Below are positions 1 through 4,767 of a DNA stretch of 4,767 nucleotides, piece by piece. Every line of letters starts with the position of its first letter. Positions within the stretch are counted from its first letter, which is position 1. This stretch comes from a virus (taxonomy: Duplodnaviria; Heunggongvirae; Uroviricota; Caudoviricetes). Under the pieces are notes generated by a model, which was not told the origin of the DNA, did not search any database, and saw only the letters and a program-made list of their open reading frames with translations. The position numbers were made by a program, and so were the translations under genes. The DNA lies in the IMG/VR virus record IMGVR_UViG_3300029254_000143; one strand, written 5' to 3'.

Positions 1-453
1 CCCTGTGGCACCCTGTGGACCTGTGTCCCCCTTCTCGCCCGCCGGTCCCCGGGCATTCTCTGCCCGTTTCTTCGCTTCCTCTGCACTCGCCGCCGACGCT
101 TCAGCACGCTTCAGGATTTCCGCTGCCACCGCTTCCAGCTCTGCAAGCGCTTTCGGGTAATACTGCGCCTCATCCTGTTCCATCAGAAATTTATTCAGCG
201 TTCCCGGCTCAGAATCCGCCTTCACCAGAATGTCACCCACATACGACGGGGCGTACCCTTCCGTGTTCAGCGTCACCCGGTACCACCCCGGCTCCACATC
301 AAAACTGTAACTGCCGGTTTCCCCCGGCTGCCCCTGCGCCACCGTGGTGACTATCACTGTCTCTGTGGTGCGTCGCGCTTTCAGCTCTATGGTGCATCCC
401 GGCACCGGCTTCCCGGTGCCGTCCTTCAGCACGCCCGATATTCTGACTGTCAT
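1..453 (-). CDS. stf: Side tail fibre protein (lambda Stf-like), N-terminal 151 codons; CDS continues beyond the window start
   Basis: Minus-strand translation from ATG (453-451) gives MTVRISGVLKDGTGKPVPGCTIELKARRTTETVIVTTVAQGQPGETGSYSFDVEPGWYRVTLNTEGYAPSYVGDILVKADSEPGTLNKFLMEQDEAQYYPKALAELEAVAAEILKRAEASAASAEEAKKRAENARGPAGEKGDTGPQGATG, open to position 1. The first ~90 residues resemble the N-terminus of lambda Stf as I recall it (MAVKISGVLKDGTGKPV...LKARR...). A GGGAG Shine-Dalgarno lies 6 nt upstream (464-460). An in-frame stop at 489-487 makes this ATG the first possible start. The ORF is absent from the six-frame track only because it has no stop inside the window. Confidence 0.85.
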   Translation of the reverse strand, partial: MTVRISGVLKDGTGKPVPGCTIELKARRTTETVIVTTVAQGQPGETGSYSFDVEPGWYRVTLNTEGYAPSYVGDILVKADSEPGTLNKFLMEQDEAQYYPKALAELEAVAAEILKRAEASAASAEEAKKRAENARGPAGEKGDTGPQGATG

Positions 454-466
454 AGATTTCTCCCAT

Positions 467-500
467 AAAAAAAACCGCAGTACCGGTTACCCGGTCTGCG
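467..500 (-). terminator. Rho-independent terminator between J and stf (minus-strand orientation)
   Basis: Read on the minus strand: a 10-bp GC-rich stem with a 1-nt bulge (plus 476-480/496-500 and 482-486/491-495) and a GUAA tetraloop, followed by G and U8 (plus A-run 467-474). RNA: CGCAGACCGGGUAACCGGUACUGCGGUUUUUUUU. The U-tract ends 3 nt before the stf Shine-Dalgarno. Confidence 0.75.
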
Positions 501-535
501 CTCAGAGGTATAAATTGTGACTGGCTGGTGTTAAA

Positions 536-560
536 GGGTGCCGTCAGTCAAAGGCACCCG
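536..560. other. Inverted repeat / hairpin GGGTGCC-N11-GGCACCC in the J-stf spacer
   Basis: Perfect 7-bp inverted repeat (536-542 and 554-560) with an 11-nt loop. On the minus-strand RNA it is followed only by UUUAAC, so it is at best a weak terminator. It may be an RNA stability element or a protein-binding palindrome. Confidence 0.4.
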
Positions 561-637
561 TGGATAATGTACGATGTCCGGCTTTTGTCGTTTTCCGGCA
601 ATCACGAACAGATGGATGAAACCTCACTATCCACCTG

Positions 638-3600
638 TCACGATGCGGTATCAAAATCGTCTGTATAGGATTTCAGGTAAAACAGAACCGGGTCCGGGAT
701 CCGAATTTGACTCGTATCATGAAGTATTGAACCACCCCTGTAAAAAAGCACACCTGCTTCATACCTGAATGTAATTTCAACCCGCGCATCACCCTGTCCG
801 GCAGGAATACCCCATGAGCCTGACGCACTTCCGCCAACATCAGAATATACCGGCTCATATCTGCTGGCGTTTTTGGAAATCTGGACCTCCCGCTCCCCGG
901 TTTTGACTTTGCCTGACCTGGCATGAACGACAACTTTGTCATTTATCTTCATGATGAATTCACCTCTGGAAAATGAATACGCCATAAGCATAAGCTTGCG
1001 ATCAAACGGCATGTTGTCTTTCAGCAAAATCATTTTCTGAAAAGTCAGCTGGTTCTGAGTCATTACGCCCTGCCCCATATCAACCGTGTATCCCTTGACG
1101 ATATCACCAATGATTCGGTCAGCGCTCATCGTTCCATTAATGGTGCAGTCTTCCGCAATCGTCACGTTATTCAGTACCCCGGCACTGGCCGTTATCGTCC
1201 CGCTGATATCGGCATTACGGGCCGTCAGCCTGCCGTCCGGCGTCAGGGAGAATGCCGGGGGATTGCCGCCGCTGGTAATGGTGGGGGCGGTAAGAACCTT
1301 TATCAGGGCCTCATTGATAAACGTCTGTCCCCCCTGCGTGACCAGTGCGGGTGTGGTATCACCATTCTCCGGATTAATGAATGCCACGCGGTCCGCTGCC
1401 AGCAGTATCTGGCTCTGCATCCCGTCAGGGGTGTTCTCAATACCGGCACCGATACCGGCAATATAGCGACGACCATCCTGCATCTGCTGTAGCTTCACCG
1501 CCCACATGCTGTTCAGGTCATTATTTGTGTCCGTCTGCACACGCTGGATTTGCTGTATGGTGGCGTTCTGGTCCTCCAGCGTTTTACTGACCGTCTGCGT
1601 GATTTCATTGCGGGTTTCTGTGATGGTGGTCTGCATTTCCGCCATCTCGTCCTTCAGCTGACTGTTGTCAATCTCTGCCCACAGCGCCTCTGCCAGATGC
1701 GTTTTTCCTATCTTTTCCCGGAAAAGTTCCAGATAACCCGCAGCATCATTGCTCGCCCGTCCACTGGCTTCCACAAAAGCAGATTTACCCACCAGGTTGA
1801 CGCTGCGCACATAAAACCAGAAATCCTTTCCGGGCTTAATGTGCGGACCGGAGACACTCCACTGACTGCCGGTCCCCAGATAACGGGCAGAGGTTTCCAC
1901 CTGTGCGGCGTCTGCAATTTTTGCCTCCGAAAACCAGAACTCAAACTGCACCGTCGGGTCATACACCGCAAGACGCGGGACTGCCGTTATCTGAAAATAC
2001 CCCGGCGTCAGTTCAACACCGGCAGGCGCTGCCGGTGCGTTAATCCGGAACGTGGTGGTGGCGGGTTCGCCCTGCTGGCCATAGCTGTTAATCGCCCTGA
2101 CCGTCAGGGTGTATTCCCCGGGAGGCAGGCCACTGAAACGGTGCTCCGTATCGGCAGTGATGGCGGTGGTCAGCAGGCGGCTGTTCTCACCGCTTCCACT
2201 GGTCAGGCGCAGACTGAAGCGCACGCCCTTCACCACCCTCGGCGTGTCCCATTTCGCCAGCGCCAGATACTGGCTGTCAGCTGCGCTCACCTCCACCGTC
2301 AGGTGCTGCACTGCCGGTGGGATGACGCTGTTCAGGGAGCCTGACTGCGGCTCAAAGCGGGCACCGTTATCCACGATGGCTTCTTTTTCCGGTACGTGCT
2401 GCACCGCCGTGATGGCAAAGGTGCCGTCCGTGTTTTCCCGGATGGCCACACAGCGGAACAGGCGACGGCGCAGTGACGGCAGGGAGAGTCCCCACACCCC
2501 GTATGTCTCCACACCATCAGGCAGGGTACTGACCTGTATCCGGTCCGGCGCGGGGTGTGCGGTGATGTCCACACTCACCGGCTTACCGCTGCCGTTAATC
2601 AGGTTCACCGTCGATGCACCTGTCCCCGGAAGTGTCACTTCACGGTCCAGCGTCAGGGTGCGGGTGGCAGCATCAATGGACAGGACACGTCCGCCGGTCA
2701 GGGTTCCGGCATAGTCGTTATCACAGATTTCAATGATGTCGCCGGGTGTGTGACGCAGCCCCTGTGACCCGAGTGTGAAATCCACCGTCTGCGTTTCCAG
2801 CAGTTCTGTCTTTATCACCCACAGTCCGGCACGGTGGGCCTGACCGCGGCTGGTACAGCCGAACGCGTCCATCTTCAGCAGGTTGCGTCCGTAGCGCAGT
2901 ATGGCTTCCGGGTCTTCCACCAGTTCCGTGGAGGTCTGCCAGCCGTTCTGCGGGTCGGTGTAATTCACCTCCACCGCCGTGTGCCGGTCCTTCAGGGCAC
3001 TGAAGCTGTAGCGGAACCCCACGCCGTTATCATCCACCACCACATCGCTGTTGGTGTACGGCCACACCACATCCGACGGGCGGTCCTGAACGAACGTCAG
3101 CGTCTGGCCGTTCCATACCGGCATACAGCGCATCGCCGAGCAGAAATCACTGAGAACGTCCCACGCCTTACGCTGTTGTGCCAGGTACGCATTAAAGGTC
3201 ATCCGCGGCTCTGTGCCCCCGAAACCATCCGGGACCGTCTGGTCGCAGTACTGCCCGATGGCATACAGCGCCCACTTGTCCACATCCGCCGCCCCCAGGC
3301 GTTTTCCCATGCCGTAGCGCGGGTGAGTCAGCATGTCCCACAGGCACCAGGCCGGGTTATTGCTGTATGCCGGTTTCAGACTGCCGTCCCAGATACCACT
3401 GTACGTGCGTTTTTCCGGGTCATAGTTTGACGGCACCTGGATGATGCGACCGCGGATATGGTAGTTCACCGTCATCTGCTGGCCACCGAACTGCTCCGCA
3501 TCCACCTGCAGCCCCACAATGGCCGTGTTCGGGTAGCACTGTTTCACATCGATGATTTCGGTGTATGACGACCAGAGCGTCTTATTCTGCAGCTGGTCCG

Positions 3601-4168
3601 TGGTGCTGTCCGCCGTCTCCCTGACCATCCGGATGTTAAAGGGCCGGGGCGGCAGATTATCCAGAATCACCGACGCCAGGAACTGCGAGGTGGTCTTGCC
3701 GTTAATGGTGACATCCTTTTCCGTCATCCATTTACCACCACGCTCAAGCTGAATCAGCAGGCGGACAGACGTCGGGTTACGGTCACCCTTTGAGGTGGTC
3801 TCCACCAGTGACTGCACCCCGAAGGTAACCCGCAGGCGGTCAATGTTCGCGGACGTAATGGTGCGCGTCACCGGCTTTGCCTTCGTCACTTCCACACCCA
3901 GTACAGTTTCAGCTCCGGAGGACTCAAAGCCTTCCGGTGGTGTCTGCTCCTGCTCCCCGGCACGCCAGACCGCTGTCACACCGTGTATCACGGGATTACC
4001 GTCCGTGTCCGTCAGCGGGGTTTTGTTCACCAGAATACTCTGCAGGCCTTTCACCGGACCTTCAATGGGTCCCTCACCAATCGCATCAATCACGCTCATC
4101 ATCTGCGTGGATTTGAGATTATCCTTCGCCTCACGAGGCGTGTGTGCCTTGCCGCCACCTTTACCCAC
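638..4168 (-). CDS. J: Host specificity / central tail fibre (tail tip) protein J, lambda gpJ family, 1176 aa
   Basis: Single long minus-strand ORF (track 638..4213). The translation is collinear with lambda gpJ as I recall it: N-terminus (V/M)GKGGGKAHTPREAKDNLKSTQ versus lambda MGKGSSKGHTPREAKDNLKST, and conserved blocks such as NKTLWSSYTEIIDVKQCYPNTA, WCLWDMLTHPRYGMGKRLGAADVDKWALY, RLFRCVAIRENTDGTFAITAVQHVPEKEAIVDNGA and APTITSGGNPPAFSLTPDGRLTARNADISG. Start placed at GTG 4168-4166, which aligns with lambda Met1 and is preceded by CAGGAGAGGGGGACAGA (GGAG and AGGGGG, 5-11 nt upstream). Stop TGA at 640-638. Confidence 0.95.
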   Translation of the reverse strand: MGKGGGKAHTPREAKDNLKSTQMMSVIDAIGEGPIEGPVKGLQSILVNKTPLTDTDGNPVIHGVTAVWRAGEQEQTPPEGFESSGAETVLGVEVTKAKPVTRTITSANIDRLRVTFGVQSLVETTSKGDRNPTSVRLLIQLERGGKWMTEKDVTINGKTTSQFLASVILDNLPPRPFNIRMVRETADSTTDQLQNKTLWSSYTEIIDVKQCYPNTAIVGLQVDAEQFGGQQMTVNYHIRGRIIQVPSNYDPEKRTYSGIWDGSLKPAYSNNPAWCLWDMLTHPRYGMGKRLGAADVDKWALYAIGQYCDQTVPDGFGGTEPRMTFNAYLAQQRKAWDVLSDFCSAMRCMPVWNGQTLTFVQDRPSDVVWPYTNSDVVVDDNGVGFRYSFSALKDRHTAVEVNYTDPQNGWQTSTELVEDPEAILRYGRNLLKMDAFGCTSRGQAHRAGLWVIKTELLETQTVDFTLGSQGLRHTPGDIIEICDNDYAGTLTGGRVLSIDAATRTLTLDREVTLPGTGASTVNLINGSGKPVSVDITAHPAPDRIQVSTLPDGVETYGVWGLSLPSLRRRLFRCVAIRENTDGTFAITAVQHVPEKEAIVDNGARFEPQSGSLNSVIPPAVQHLTVEVSAADSQYLALAKWDTPRVVKGVRFSLRLTSGSGENSRLLTTAITADTEHRFSGLPPGEYTLTVRAINSYGQQGEPATTTFRINAPAAPAGVELTPGYFQITAVPRLAVYDPTVQFEFWFSEAKIADAAQVETSARYLGTGSQWSVSGPHIKPGKDFWFYVRSVNLVGKSAFVEASGRASNDAAGYLELFREKIGKTHLAEALWAEIDNSQLKDEMAEMQTTITETRNEITQTVSKTLEDQNATIQQIQRVQTDTNNDLNSMWAVKLQQMQDGRRYIAGIGAGIENTPDGMQSQILLAADRVAFINPENGDTTPALVTQGGQTFINEALIKVLTAPTITSGGNPPAFSLTPDGRLTARNADISGTITASAGVLNNVTIAEDCTINGTMSADRIIGDIVKGYTVDMGQGVMTQNQLTFQKMILLKDNMPFDRKLMLMAYSFSRGEFIMKINDKVVVHARSGKVKTGEREVQISKNASRYEPVYSDVGGSASGSWGIPAGQGDARVEITFRYEAGVLFYRGGSILHDTSQIRIPDPVLFYLKSYTDDFDTAS

Positions 4169-4211: not shown

Positions 4212-4243
4212 AAAAAACAACAGGCACCCCGGAGAATGCCTGT
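4212..4243 (-). terminator. Putative weak intrinsic terminator on the minus strand, just downstream of the small ORF and upstream of the J RBS
   Basis: 7-bp stem (plus 4220-4226 / 4237-4243; ACAGGCA / TGCCTGT) with a 10-nt loop. On the minus-strand RNA it is followed by UGUUUUUUGGG (plus A-run 4212-4217). The stem is shorter and less GC-rich than the other two terminators, so the call is tentative. Confidence 0.45.
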
Positions 4244-4418: not shown

Positions 4419-4767
4419 TTATCCCTGTCGACCAATAACCACCACCTTTCCGCCCCCGCCTTCATCACGGGTGCTGATGTCCTGAGAGATACGTCGTGAA
4501 CCAACCAGCATTTCCCCGTAAGACACCGGCATCGGGTTACCCTGGGCAATCATGTTGTCCAGCGAGGAAAAGTACGTGTTCTGTTTACCGTTATCCGTTG
4601 CCCGGTAATCCGGTGTCTTTGCCTTCGGGGCAAGCATCTGCGCCACACCACCCAGAATCATGCTGGCACCCAGTGAAAACAGCATCGTGGTGGCAGAAAA
4701 ACCACCGGCTGCCAGGGCTGAACCCCATAACGCCATTGATGCCCCGGCCGTGAAGAAAGACCCCACA
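4419..4767 (-). CDS. I: Tail assembly protein I (lambda gpI-like), C-terminal ~115 codons; 5' end lies beyond the window
   Basis: Minus-strand translation ...GSFFTAGASMALWGSALAAGGFSATTMLFSLGASMILGGVAQMLAPKAKTPDYRATDNGKQNTYFSSLDNMIAQGNPMPVSYGEMLVGSRRISQDISTRDEGGGGKVVVIGRQG, stop TAA at 4421-4419. This closely resembles the C-terminal part of lambda gpI as I recall it (...GSFFTAGA...LFSLGASMVLGGVAQMLAPKA...TDNGKQNTYFSSLDNMVAQGN...YGEM.VGSR..SQ.IST.DEG.GG.VVVIGR). The Met at 4766 is internal and the frame is open to the window edge. Confidence 0.85.
   Translation of the reverse strand, partial: VGSFFTAGASMALWGSALAAGGFSATTMLFSLGASMILGGVAQMLAPKAKTPDYRATDNGKQNTYFSSLDNMIAQGNPMPVSYGEMLVGSRRISQDISTRDEGGGGKVVVIGRQG

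What the first reader, a model, noticed from the sequence alone, without database searches (positions are those of the whole stretch)
641..1093. J C-terminal ~150 residues diverge from the lambda receptor-binding domain
The J homologue tracks lambda gpJ closely through ...NVTIAE(D/N)CTINGT...(I/V)GDIVK and then diverges completely (GYTVDMGQGVMTQNQLTFQKMILLKDNMPFDRKLMLMAYSFSRGEFIMKINDKVVVHARSGKVKTGEREVQISKNASRYEPVYSDVGGSASGSWGIPAGQGDARVEITFRYEAGVLFYRGGSILHDTSQIRIPDPVLFYLKSYTDDFDTAS). In lambda the C-terminal domain of gpJ binds the LamB receptor. A swapped C-terminal module implies a different outer-membrane receptor and host range, and is a modular-exchange hotspot.
Basis: partly seen in the sequence, partly recalled or inferred. 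Interest (0 to 1): 0.45.

Follow-up and report, generated by a model that had tools for sequence, protein, structure and literature searches.

The report
Rare receptor-binding tip on lambda-like J
The last 151 residues of this lambda-like tail-tip protein J are a rare, strongly diverged version of the same receptor-binding domain that lambda uses to bind LamB, swapped in as a recombination cassette; it probably changes which bacterial surface protein the phage binds, but the receptor is unknown and this kind of swapping is already well documented.

The parts
638..4168 (-). Complete J (tip attachment / central tail fibre) gene, GTG start, 1176 aa plus stop
   Evidence: ORF. The GTG preceded by GGAGAGGGGG aligns with the lambda J start MGKG. 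NCBIfam NF049904 lambda_TipJ scores 2122 bits against a cut-off of 1950. Pfam finds FNIII-A_GpJ, Phage-tail_3, Ig_J, Ig_J_second and Phage_Tail_Tip.
641..1093 (-). Diverged receptor-binding domain (here 'X1 type'), 151 aa, GYTVDM...DFDTAS
1094..1303 (-). Last 70 residues of the conserved central straight fibre, ending in GDIVK (codons 1094-1108); upstream homology arm for cassette exchange
   Evidence: 53 of 70 residues identical to lambda. Matches PDB 8iyk/8xcj residues 932-999. Nucleotide similarity to lambda, 1720a-02 and PhiR5_1 ends at 1093, 1095 and 1157.
896..964 (-). RBD residues about 44-66: insertion of about 13 aa relative to lambda, predicted as an extra beta-hairpin
   Evidence: Alignments A1 and A5. 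Model strands E54-60 and E63-69. Coincides with the lambda 1048/1049 indel hotspot of PMC6646904.
689..757 (-). RBD residues about 113-135: enlarged irregular loop aligned to lambda about 1100-1115 (the 1107 host-range hotspot)
   Evidence: hhalign alignment. pLDDT about 65 here. Five of the seven allele differences fall in it.
695..811 (-). Polymorphic stretch (RBD residues 95-133) separating allele A (this window) from allele B
   Evidence: G95S, A103V, G114D, R119M, T127K, Q129K, P133H. Eight nucleotide changes, all in amino-acid-changing codons, none synonymous. Clustering P about 0.001.
454..637 (-). 184-base J-stf spacer with a terminator-like hairpin (488-473 plus T run); no lom gene; holds the downstream recombination boundary
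   Evidence: Sequence; terminator scan. Similarity to 1720a-02 resumes at 606/545 and to PhiR5_1 at 480.
1..453 (-). 5' part of a side-tail-fibre (stf-like) gene, running off the window
   Evidence: PF08400 phage_tail_N, E 9e-44. RefSeq annotates relatives as 'prophage tail fiber N-terminal domain-containing protein'.
4419..4766 (-). 3' part of tail assembly gene I (partial)
   Evidence: ORF. Annotated 'tail tip assembly protein I' in the PhiR12 phages and the E. coli prophages.

Best explanation
Window 1093..641 (minus strand) encodes the distal receptor-binding domain of a lambda-type central tail fibre J. Shown: the J body, including the beta-prism that ends in GDIVK, is an ordinary lambda-family J. 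The 151 residues after GDIVK are a remote homologue of the Ig-like gpJ RBD. They keep the scaffold anchors (D-x3-FDR, a core Phe, KN, PAGxG, a Lys near the end). The intervening loops are replaced, with two insertions of about 13 and about 9 aa at the indel hotspots known from lambda. The domain belongs to a small clade (X1 here; X2 at 66% and X3 at 29% identity) seen only in E. coli prophages and in the PhiR12 phages. It is a discrete low-GC cassette bounded by conserved J-prism sequence upstream and by the spacer and stf start downstream. This is what homologous recombination between lambdoid prophages would produce. Inferred, by analogy with the solved lambda-LamB and A8-OmpC complexes: three copies form the fibre tip, their distal loops dock on an outer-membrane protein, and docking spreads the RBD trimer and sends the opening signal up the fibre. 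Because all distal loops differ from lambda's, the domain most likely binds something other than LamB in the lambda manner. I consider a trimeric porin the most likely class. The receptor itself is not identified. It must be present on both E. coli K-12 and E. coli C, on which the PhiR12 phages are recorded as grown.
Confidence: 0.75

Rival explanations
1. The X1 domain binds OmpC, like the A8, 1A2 and phage 434 J tips, perhaps with a different preference among OmpC alleles.
For: X1 replaces a 1A2-type (OmpC-binding) RBD on otherwise near-identical J and prophage backbones. At least 11 X1 prophages carry an OmpC-like porin gene in the tail operon. From memory, not checked here: this recalls OmpC-using phage PA-2 with its lc porin, and phage 434 is said to use OmpC (PMC11101478); both records carry a porin gene. 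OmpC is present in K-12 and C. OmpC is polymorphic, which would fit clustered non-synonymous allele differences.
Against: X1 has no significant pairwise similarity to A8 or 1A2 (z 2.3 and 1.5). The porin gene also accompanies X3 and 1720a-type RBDs, so it is not specific. The PhiR12 phages were not among the 40 porin matches listed of 42.
Confidence: 0.3
2. The X1 domain still binds LamB: a different sequence solution for the same receptor.
For: Unrelated GpJ tip domains of Drexlerviridae are LamB-specific. The fold, and presumably the trimer geometry, are shared with lambda's RBD.
Against: The loop regions that correspond to lambda's distal loops, including the stretches around residues 1012 and 1107 that matter for receptor choice (PMC6646904), have different sequence and length. 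Prophages with X1 and with other RBD types coexist in one genome. That fits niche separation but does not prove it.
Confidence: 0.12
3. The X1 domain binds a non-porin outer-membrane protein (for example FhuA, BtuB, TolC, OmpA, Tsx, LptD) or an LPS core sugar.
For: The domain is far from all characterised gpJ RBDs, so specificity is unconstrained. Two large loop insertions could build a new binding surface.
Against: The FhuA-using lambdoids checked (HK022, N15) use a different tip architecture and carry cor, which is absent here. All characterised members of the prism-plus-Ig-RBD architecture bind trimeric porins (PMC11101478, PMC11338833, PDB 9wcb). The only carbohydrate-related family hit, HepII_C, is below threshold (E 0.016).
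Confidence: 0.3
4. The divergent tail is a decayed or non-functional C-terminus of a defective prophage.
For: Many lambdoid prophages are defective. In PhiR12_5 the J gene is annotated as two CDS. In strain SW070917 an IS4 lies under the J match.
Against: The 1176-codon ORF is intact here. The domain is 98-100% conserved in 52 places. It is present in five sequenced phages with recorded laboratory hosts. The model folds with confidence. Scaffold motifs are conserved across X1, X2 and X3.
Confidence: 0.03

Closest known systems
Lambda gpJ C-terminal receptor-binding domain (Pfam PF12421 Ig_GpJ_C; PDB 8XCK closed, 8XCJ with LamB)
   Same: Same position directly after GDIVK at the end of the central straight fibre. 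Same Ig-like beta-sandwich by model comparison. Shared FDR and PAGxG anchors.
   Different: 27% identity over 113 alignable columns, z=1.9. No PF12421 hit. 18 residues longer, with insertions at the lambda 1048/49 and 1107 hotspots. No cysteine. C-terminus DFDTAS instead of GISVV. Receptor unknown, whereas lambda's is LamB.
A8 and 1A2 gpJ chimeras of Brodel et al. 2024 (PMC11338833; PDB 9WCA/9WCB, A8 with OmpC)
   Different: 23% and 21% identity, not significant pairwise. A8 and 1A2 match PF12421, X1 does not. Their receptor, OmpC, is proven by experiment.
J 'specificity region' as an independently recombining module (Maddamsetti et al. 2018, PMC6646904)
   Same: The paper describes the same pattern: residues 960-1132 evolve and recombine apart from the rest of J, and indels at 1012, 1048/49, 1077/78 and 1107 mark lineages. 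X1's length differences fall at those sites.
   Different: That study required homologues to align to nearly all of lambda J. Whether any X-type sequence was in its alignment was not checked.
RBD type P0128 (E. coli prophage J, 98 cluster members)
   Same: Intermediate form. It shares GGGD-x-R, a long loop insertion and an ..SGF..S end with the X clade. z=4.4 against X1.
   Different: Has a precomputed PF12421 hit. 26% identical to X1.
FhuA-dependent lambdoid tail tips (HK022 gp24-like J, N15 gene 21) with cor
   Same: Homologous J body and Phage_Tail_Tip domain.
   Different: These proteins end with PF09327. They lack the GDIVK prism end and any Ig-like RBD, and a cor exclusion gene lies downstream. 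The window has the lambda-type architecture and no cor.

Membership tests
Lambda-type tip attachment protein J (NCBIfam NF049904 lambda_TipJ) | Full-length match above the curated cut-off | tested here: met
   2122 bits against a cut-off of 1950, residues 1-1131 of 1176.
Lambda-type tip attachment protein J (NCBIfam NF049904 lambda_TipJ) | Domain order FNIII-A, hub (Phage-tail_3), two Ig/FNIII domains, helical shaft and tail-tip domain, beta-prism ending in GDIVK | tested here: met
   Pfam hits in that order. Collinear BLASTP to lambda J. PDB sequence matches to 8iyk residues 932-1042.
Lambda-type tip attachment protein J (NCBIfam NF049904 lambda_TipJ) | Gene context I - J - (lom) - stf | tested here: met
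   gpI upstream and stf N-terminal domain downstream. lom is absent, as it is in 1720a-02 and the X2 contig.
Pfam PF12421 Ig_GpJ_C (gpJ C-terminal receptor-binding domain) | HMM match above the gathering score (26.2 bits) | tested here: not met
   No hit at E<=10 for the 151 aa or for the 220-aa C-terminus. Lambda control 253 bits. X3 gives 16 bits over 28 residues only.
Pfam PF12421 Ig_GpJ_C (gpJ C-terminal receptor-binding domain) | Homology detectable by profile-profile comparison | tested here: met
   hhalign 92.5%, E 4.7e-7, 111 columns, 15% identity. The query profile has only 3 sequences.
Pfam PF12421 Ig_GpJ_C (gpJ C-terminal receptor-binding domain) | Ig-like beta-sandwich fold as in 8XCK/9WCA | tested here: met
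Pfam PF12421 Ig_GpJ_C (gpJ C-terminal receptor-binding domain) | Forms the trimeric fibre tip and binds an outer-membrane receptor | not testable with these tools
   Needs multimer modelling, adsorption assays or cryo-EM.
OmpC-binding gpJ RBDs (A8 / 1A2 / 434 type) | Sequence membership in the A8 or 1A2 RBD types | tested here: not met
   23% and 21% identity, z 2.3 and 1.5. The 1A2 and A8 DNA sequences were read from the supplement of PMC11338833 and do not contain X1 strings.
OmpC-binding gpJ RBDs (A8 / 1A2 / 434 type) | Dependence on OmpC for delivery or infection | not testable with these tools
   Only indirect hints: the shared backbone with 1A2-type prophages and the porin gene in the tail operon.
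FhuA-dependent lambdoid tail tip with Cor exclusion (HK022, N15) | J ends with the Phage_Tail_Tip domain, without prism or Ig RBD, and cor lies downstream | tested here: not met
   HK022 and N15 J C-termini match only PF09327 and carry cor. The window has prism plus RBD and no ORF between J and stf.

The most novel reading that the evidence does not exclude
The X clade (X1, X2, X3) is a separate branch of gpJ receptor-binding domains. It would direct lambda-type phages of Shiga-toxin-producing and related E. coli to an outer-membrane receptor not yet known for lambda-type J tips, that is neither LamB, OmpC nor OmpF. One speculative candidate is a prophage-encoded porin. The seven clustered amino-acid differences between its two alleles would then mark an ongoing arms race at the contact loops.
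Probability: 0.25. Interest if true: 0.5.

Novelty: new member of a known kind. Interest (0 to 1): 0.3.

Why it matters
The C-terminal domain of J decides which cells a lambda-type phage, or an engineered lambda-derived delivery particle, can inject. Only a few natural J tips have known receptors: lambda (LamB), and 434, A8 and 1A2 (OmpC). This window holds a rare type that Pfam's model of the domain does not detect. It still appears to fit the same fibre, because the junction at GDIVK is conserved. That makes it a ready candidate for chimeric J engineering in the style of PMC11338833, and for extending receptor-prediction sets. It also gives a clean natural example of cassette exchange with mapped boundaries, and of two alleles that differ only by clustered amino-acid changes. 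The general principle, a modular and recombining J specificity region, is already established. The value is therefore that of a new uncharacterised specificity type, not of a new mechanism.

Tried and rejected
- Single-sequence AlphaFold of the 220-aa C-terminus failed (pLDDT 38). It was replaced by a 40-row alignment.
- The first word-indexed protein search with the 151 aa returned only three fragments. Full HMMER over 1.84 billion representatives found only fragments of the same domain plus one spurious repeat protein, P0006. Longer and profile queries were needed to find X2, X3 and P0128.
- A pattern scan of GTDB species-representative genomes found no relative.
- BFVD fold search gave nothing useful.
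- Literature searches for PhiR12, for the PV3405xx accessions and for ECOR13 temperate phages found no paper on these phages or their receptor. Searches for characterised gpJ tips turned up only LamB- and OmpC-binding ones.
- I asked whether the OmpC-like porin gene in the tail operon of X1 prophages points to the receptor. It is enriched: at least 11 of the 52 X1 places, against about 109 of about 15,700 J-like places. But it also accompanies X3, 1A2-type and 1720a-type RBDs. I therefore rejected it as RBD-specific evidence.
- Rejected as chance or below threshold: the Pfam HepII_C hit (E 0.016), the Bactofilin hit and the antisense plus-strand ORFs across the region.
- I considered comparing chromosomal ompC and lamB alleles of the 29 host genomes. 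The tools list only the best rows, so it could not be done.

Full report
**1. What is at the coordinates**

The window carries the 3' part of tail assembly gene I, a complete J gene, a 184-base spacer and the start of a side-tail-fibre gene. All are on the minus strand.
- The mechanical ORF for J starts at a TTG at 4213. The real start is almost certainly the GTG at 4168, which follows GGAGAGGGGG and gives MGKGGGKAHTPREAKDNLKST, aligned with the lambda J N-terminus.
- J is therefore 4168..638 and 1176 aa long.
- It scores 2122 bits on NCBIfam lambda_TipJ against a cut-off of 1950.
- It has the Pfam series FNIII-A_GpJ, Phage-tail_3, Ig_J, Ig_J_second and Phage_Tail_Tip.

**2. The observation**

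- BLASTP to lambda J (fetched as L001) gives 66% identity over 1048 residues. The alignment is collinear and ends shortly after GDIVK.
- 53 of the 70 residues before the break are identical. After it the two proteins have 151 and 133 residues.
Similarity to phage 1720a-02 stops at 1095.
- A global alignment of the two C-terminal domains scores z=1.9 against shuffles.
- Pfam PF12421 (Ig_GpJ_C) scores 253 bits on lambda's domain and gives no hit on this one, even at E<=10.

**3. The domain is a remote homologue, not an unrelated module**

- Alignments with other J C-termini show conserved anchors along the whole domain: D-x3-FDR, a core Phe, KN, PAGxG, a Lys near the end and the final Ser.
- A profile of the three X-type sequences against a profile of 11 lambda-family RBDs, using only residues after GDIVK, gives hhalign probability 92.5% and E 4.7e-7 over 111 columns at 15% identity.
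- One natural type, P0128, has a precomputed PF12421 hit, shares X-like features and scores z=4.4 against X1. It acts as an intermediate.
- An AlphaFold2 model built on a 40-row alignment has pLDDT 83.4 and pTM 0.74 and is a beta-sandwich.
- Its four best Foldseek matches among solved structures are the gpJ tips 9wcb_F, 8xck_F, 8xcj_F and 9wca_F (E about 3e-6, TM 0.53-0.57).

Caveat: 34 of the 39 helper rows in the model's alignment are lambda-family sequences, so the model is not independent of that family. The hhalign result does not depend on the model.

**4. Where it differs from lambda**

- X1 is 18 residues longer than lambda's domain.
- An insertion of about 13 aa (residues about 44-66) is predicted as an extra hairpin.
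- A second insertion of about 9 aa lies in residues about 113-135.
- The N-terminal loop is different and shorter.
- These positions correspond to lambda residues about 1012, 1048/49 and 1107. Maddamsetti et al. (PMC6646904) identified those sites as indel hotspots that mark J lineages, and they include the two residues (1012 and 1107) needed for the laboratory shift to OmpF.
- In the lambda-LamB structure, four loops at the bottom of the RBD insert into the receptor (PMC11101478).
- I could not inspect model coordinates. The assignment of X1's insertions to distal loops is therefore an inference from alignment.

**5. A recombination cassette**

- Against 1720a-02, similarity is lost between bases 1095 and 606. 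Against PhiR5_1 it is lost between 1157 and 480, where PhiR5_1 has a 1A2-type RBD plus lom.
- GC is 46.6% in the RBD (GC3 49%) against 59% (GC3 71%) in the rest of J. Other RBD types are also lower in GC than the J body, but less so: lambda 56%, 1A2-type 52%, X3 48.5%.
- One prophage backbone can be recognised by an OmpC-like porin gene between tail genes M and L. It carries X1 (L014), X3 (L020), 1A2-type (L015, L016, L021, L023) or 1720a-type (L019, L022) RBDs.

This is direct evidence that the C-terminal module is exchanged between otherwise similar tails. It agrees with the published conclusion that the J specificity region is an independent evolutionary module.

**6. Distribution**

- X1 occurs in 29 of 5426 complete E. 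coli genomes, in 52 places, all on chromosomes. All copies are 98-100% identical at DNA level and nothing lies between 65% and 98%.
- Among 50,697 phage records it occurs only in five PhiR12 phages (PV340549-54), whose recorded hosts are K-12 MG1655 or E. coli C.
- It occurs in nine IMG/VR contigs.
- A pattern scan of GTDB species-representative genomes found none.
- HMMER over 1.84 billion representative proteins found only fragments of the same domain.
- Sister types exist. X2 (P0007) is 66% identical, has 11 cluster members and is also followed directly by stf. X3 (P0008) is 29% identical and occurs in 10 genomes, six of which also carry X1.
- PHROG 5269 (function unknown) matches the domain at E 2e-17.
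- RefSeq annotates the whole protein as gpJ. The sequence itself is therefore on record and named, but I found no study of its receptor.

**7. Two alleles**

Allele B is found in L008-L011, in P0001, and apparently in the genome copies at 98.0-98.2% DNA identity (the same figure as L008-L011). It differs from the window's allele by eight nucleotide changes in seven codons: G95S, A103V, G114D, R119M, T127K, Q129K and P133H.
- None of the changes is synonymous.
- All fall within residues 95-133.
- The chance that seven random positions span 39 residues or fewer is about 0.001.
- Zero synonymous changes out of eight is not significant by itself (P about 0.13).
- By the hhalign alignment these residues correspond to lambda residues about 1085-1114, the stretch that includes residue 1107.

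This pattern fits selection on receptor contact, but it is suggestive only.

**8. The receptor**

Nothing here identifies it. The facts that bear on it are these.
- The characterised J tips of the prism-plus-Ig architecture noted here bind trimeric porins: lambda binds LamB; A8, 1A2 and 434 bind OmpC; evolved lambda binds OmpF.
- The FhuA-using lambdoids HK022 and N15 have J proteins that end with the Phage_Tail_Tip domain. They have no prism end or Ig RBD, and they carry cor downstream. The window has neither feature.
- The receptor must exist on both K-12 and E. coli C.
- The porin gene association is real but not specific to one RBD type.

My ranking is: a trimeric porin other than LamB in the lambda binding mode is most likely, with OmpC the single best candidate at about 0.3. 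A non-porin receptor is about 0.3. LamB is about 0.12.

**9. Verdict**

Modular exchange is shown. 'Diverges completely' needs the qualification that fold and scaffold are retained. A different receptor is plausible but untested. In kind this is a known phenomenon with a new, uncharacterised specificity type. Its interest is modest and mostly practical, for phage and delivery-vector engineering and for receptor-prediction sets.

Noticed in passing
L014 16958-18121 (E. coli 2012EL-2448, NZ_CP027586.1 308573-309736); not in the window: A 387-aa OmpC-like porin gene (WP_000738902.1) sits inside the tail operon between genes M and L of prophages related to this one. About 100 of 5426 genomes have such a porin there, at 82-100% identity. 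It is about 68% identical to the lc/nmpC porins of PA-2, 434 and many lambdoid phages, which lie at a different locus. At least 11 X1-carrying prophages have it, but so do prophages with X3, 1A2-type and 1720a-type J tips.
   Followed up: partly
window 454-637: There is no lom gene between J and stf, only a 184-base spacer with a terminator-like hairpin. Prophages with the 1A2-type RBD have lom here (L012, L015, L016, L021). X3 and 1720a-type prophages have a hok/gef-family gene instead (L020 9068-9208, L022 9486-9626). The X2 contig L024 is like the window.
   Followed up: partly
window about 1571-1651 (J residues about 840-866): J has about 28 extra residues relative to lambda in the alpha-helical shaft region (gaps of 21 and 7 residues in the BLASTP alignment). 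Many Stx-phage and prophage J proteins share the longer form (alignment A5).
   Followed up: no
L002 6604-9528 and 9606-10133 (phage PhiR12_5, PV340554.1): In PhiR12_5 the J gene is annotated as two CDS, with the X1 domain in the second ('hypothetical protein; tail fiber protein'). This implies a frameshift, a stop or a sequencing error in a phage that was nevertheless propagated. The window's J is intact.
   Followed up: no
E. coli SW070917 (NZ_CM129862.1): One genome holds six places matching the X1 domain, and an IS4 element lies under one J match. Several genomes carry X1 together with X3 or 1A2-type J prophages. Co-resident lambdoid prophages therefore often differ in their J tips.
   Followed up: no
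L002 2967-4979 and L016 11664-13676: Between tail genes L and K, PhiR12_5 and some prophages carry an inserted block. RefSeq annotates it in L016 as ClpP-like protease, Arc-family repressor, YlcI/YnfO protein and P22AR antirepressor. It is a second insertion site in the tail operon besides the M-L porin site.
   Followed up: no
window 528-768, plus strand: Two plus-strand ORFs (46 and 64 aa) overlap the J stop region antisense to J. They have no support and were treated as chance ORFs.
   Followed up: no
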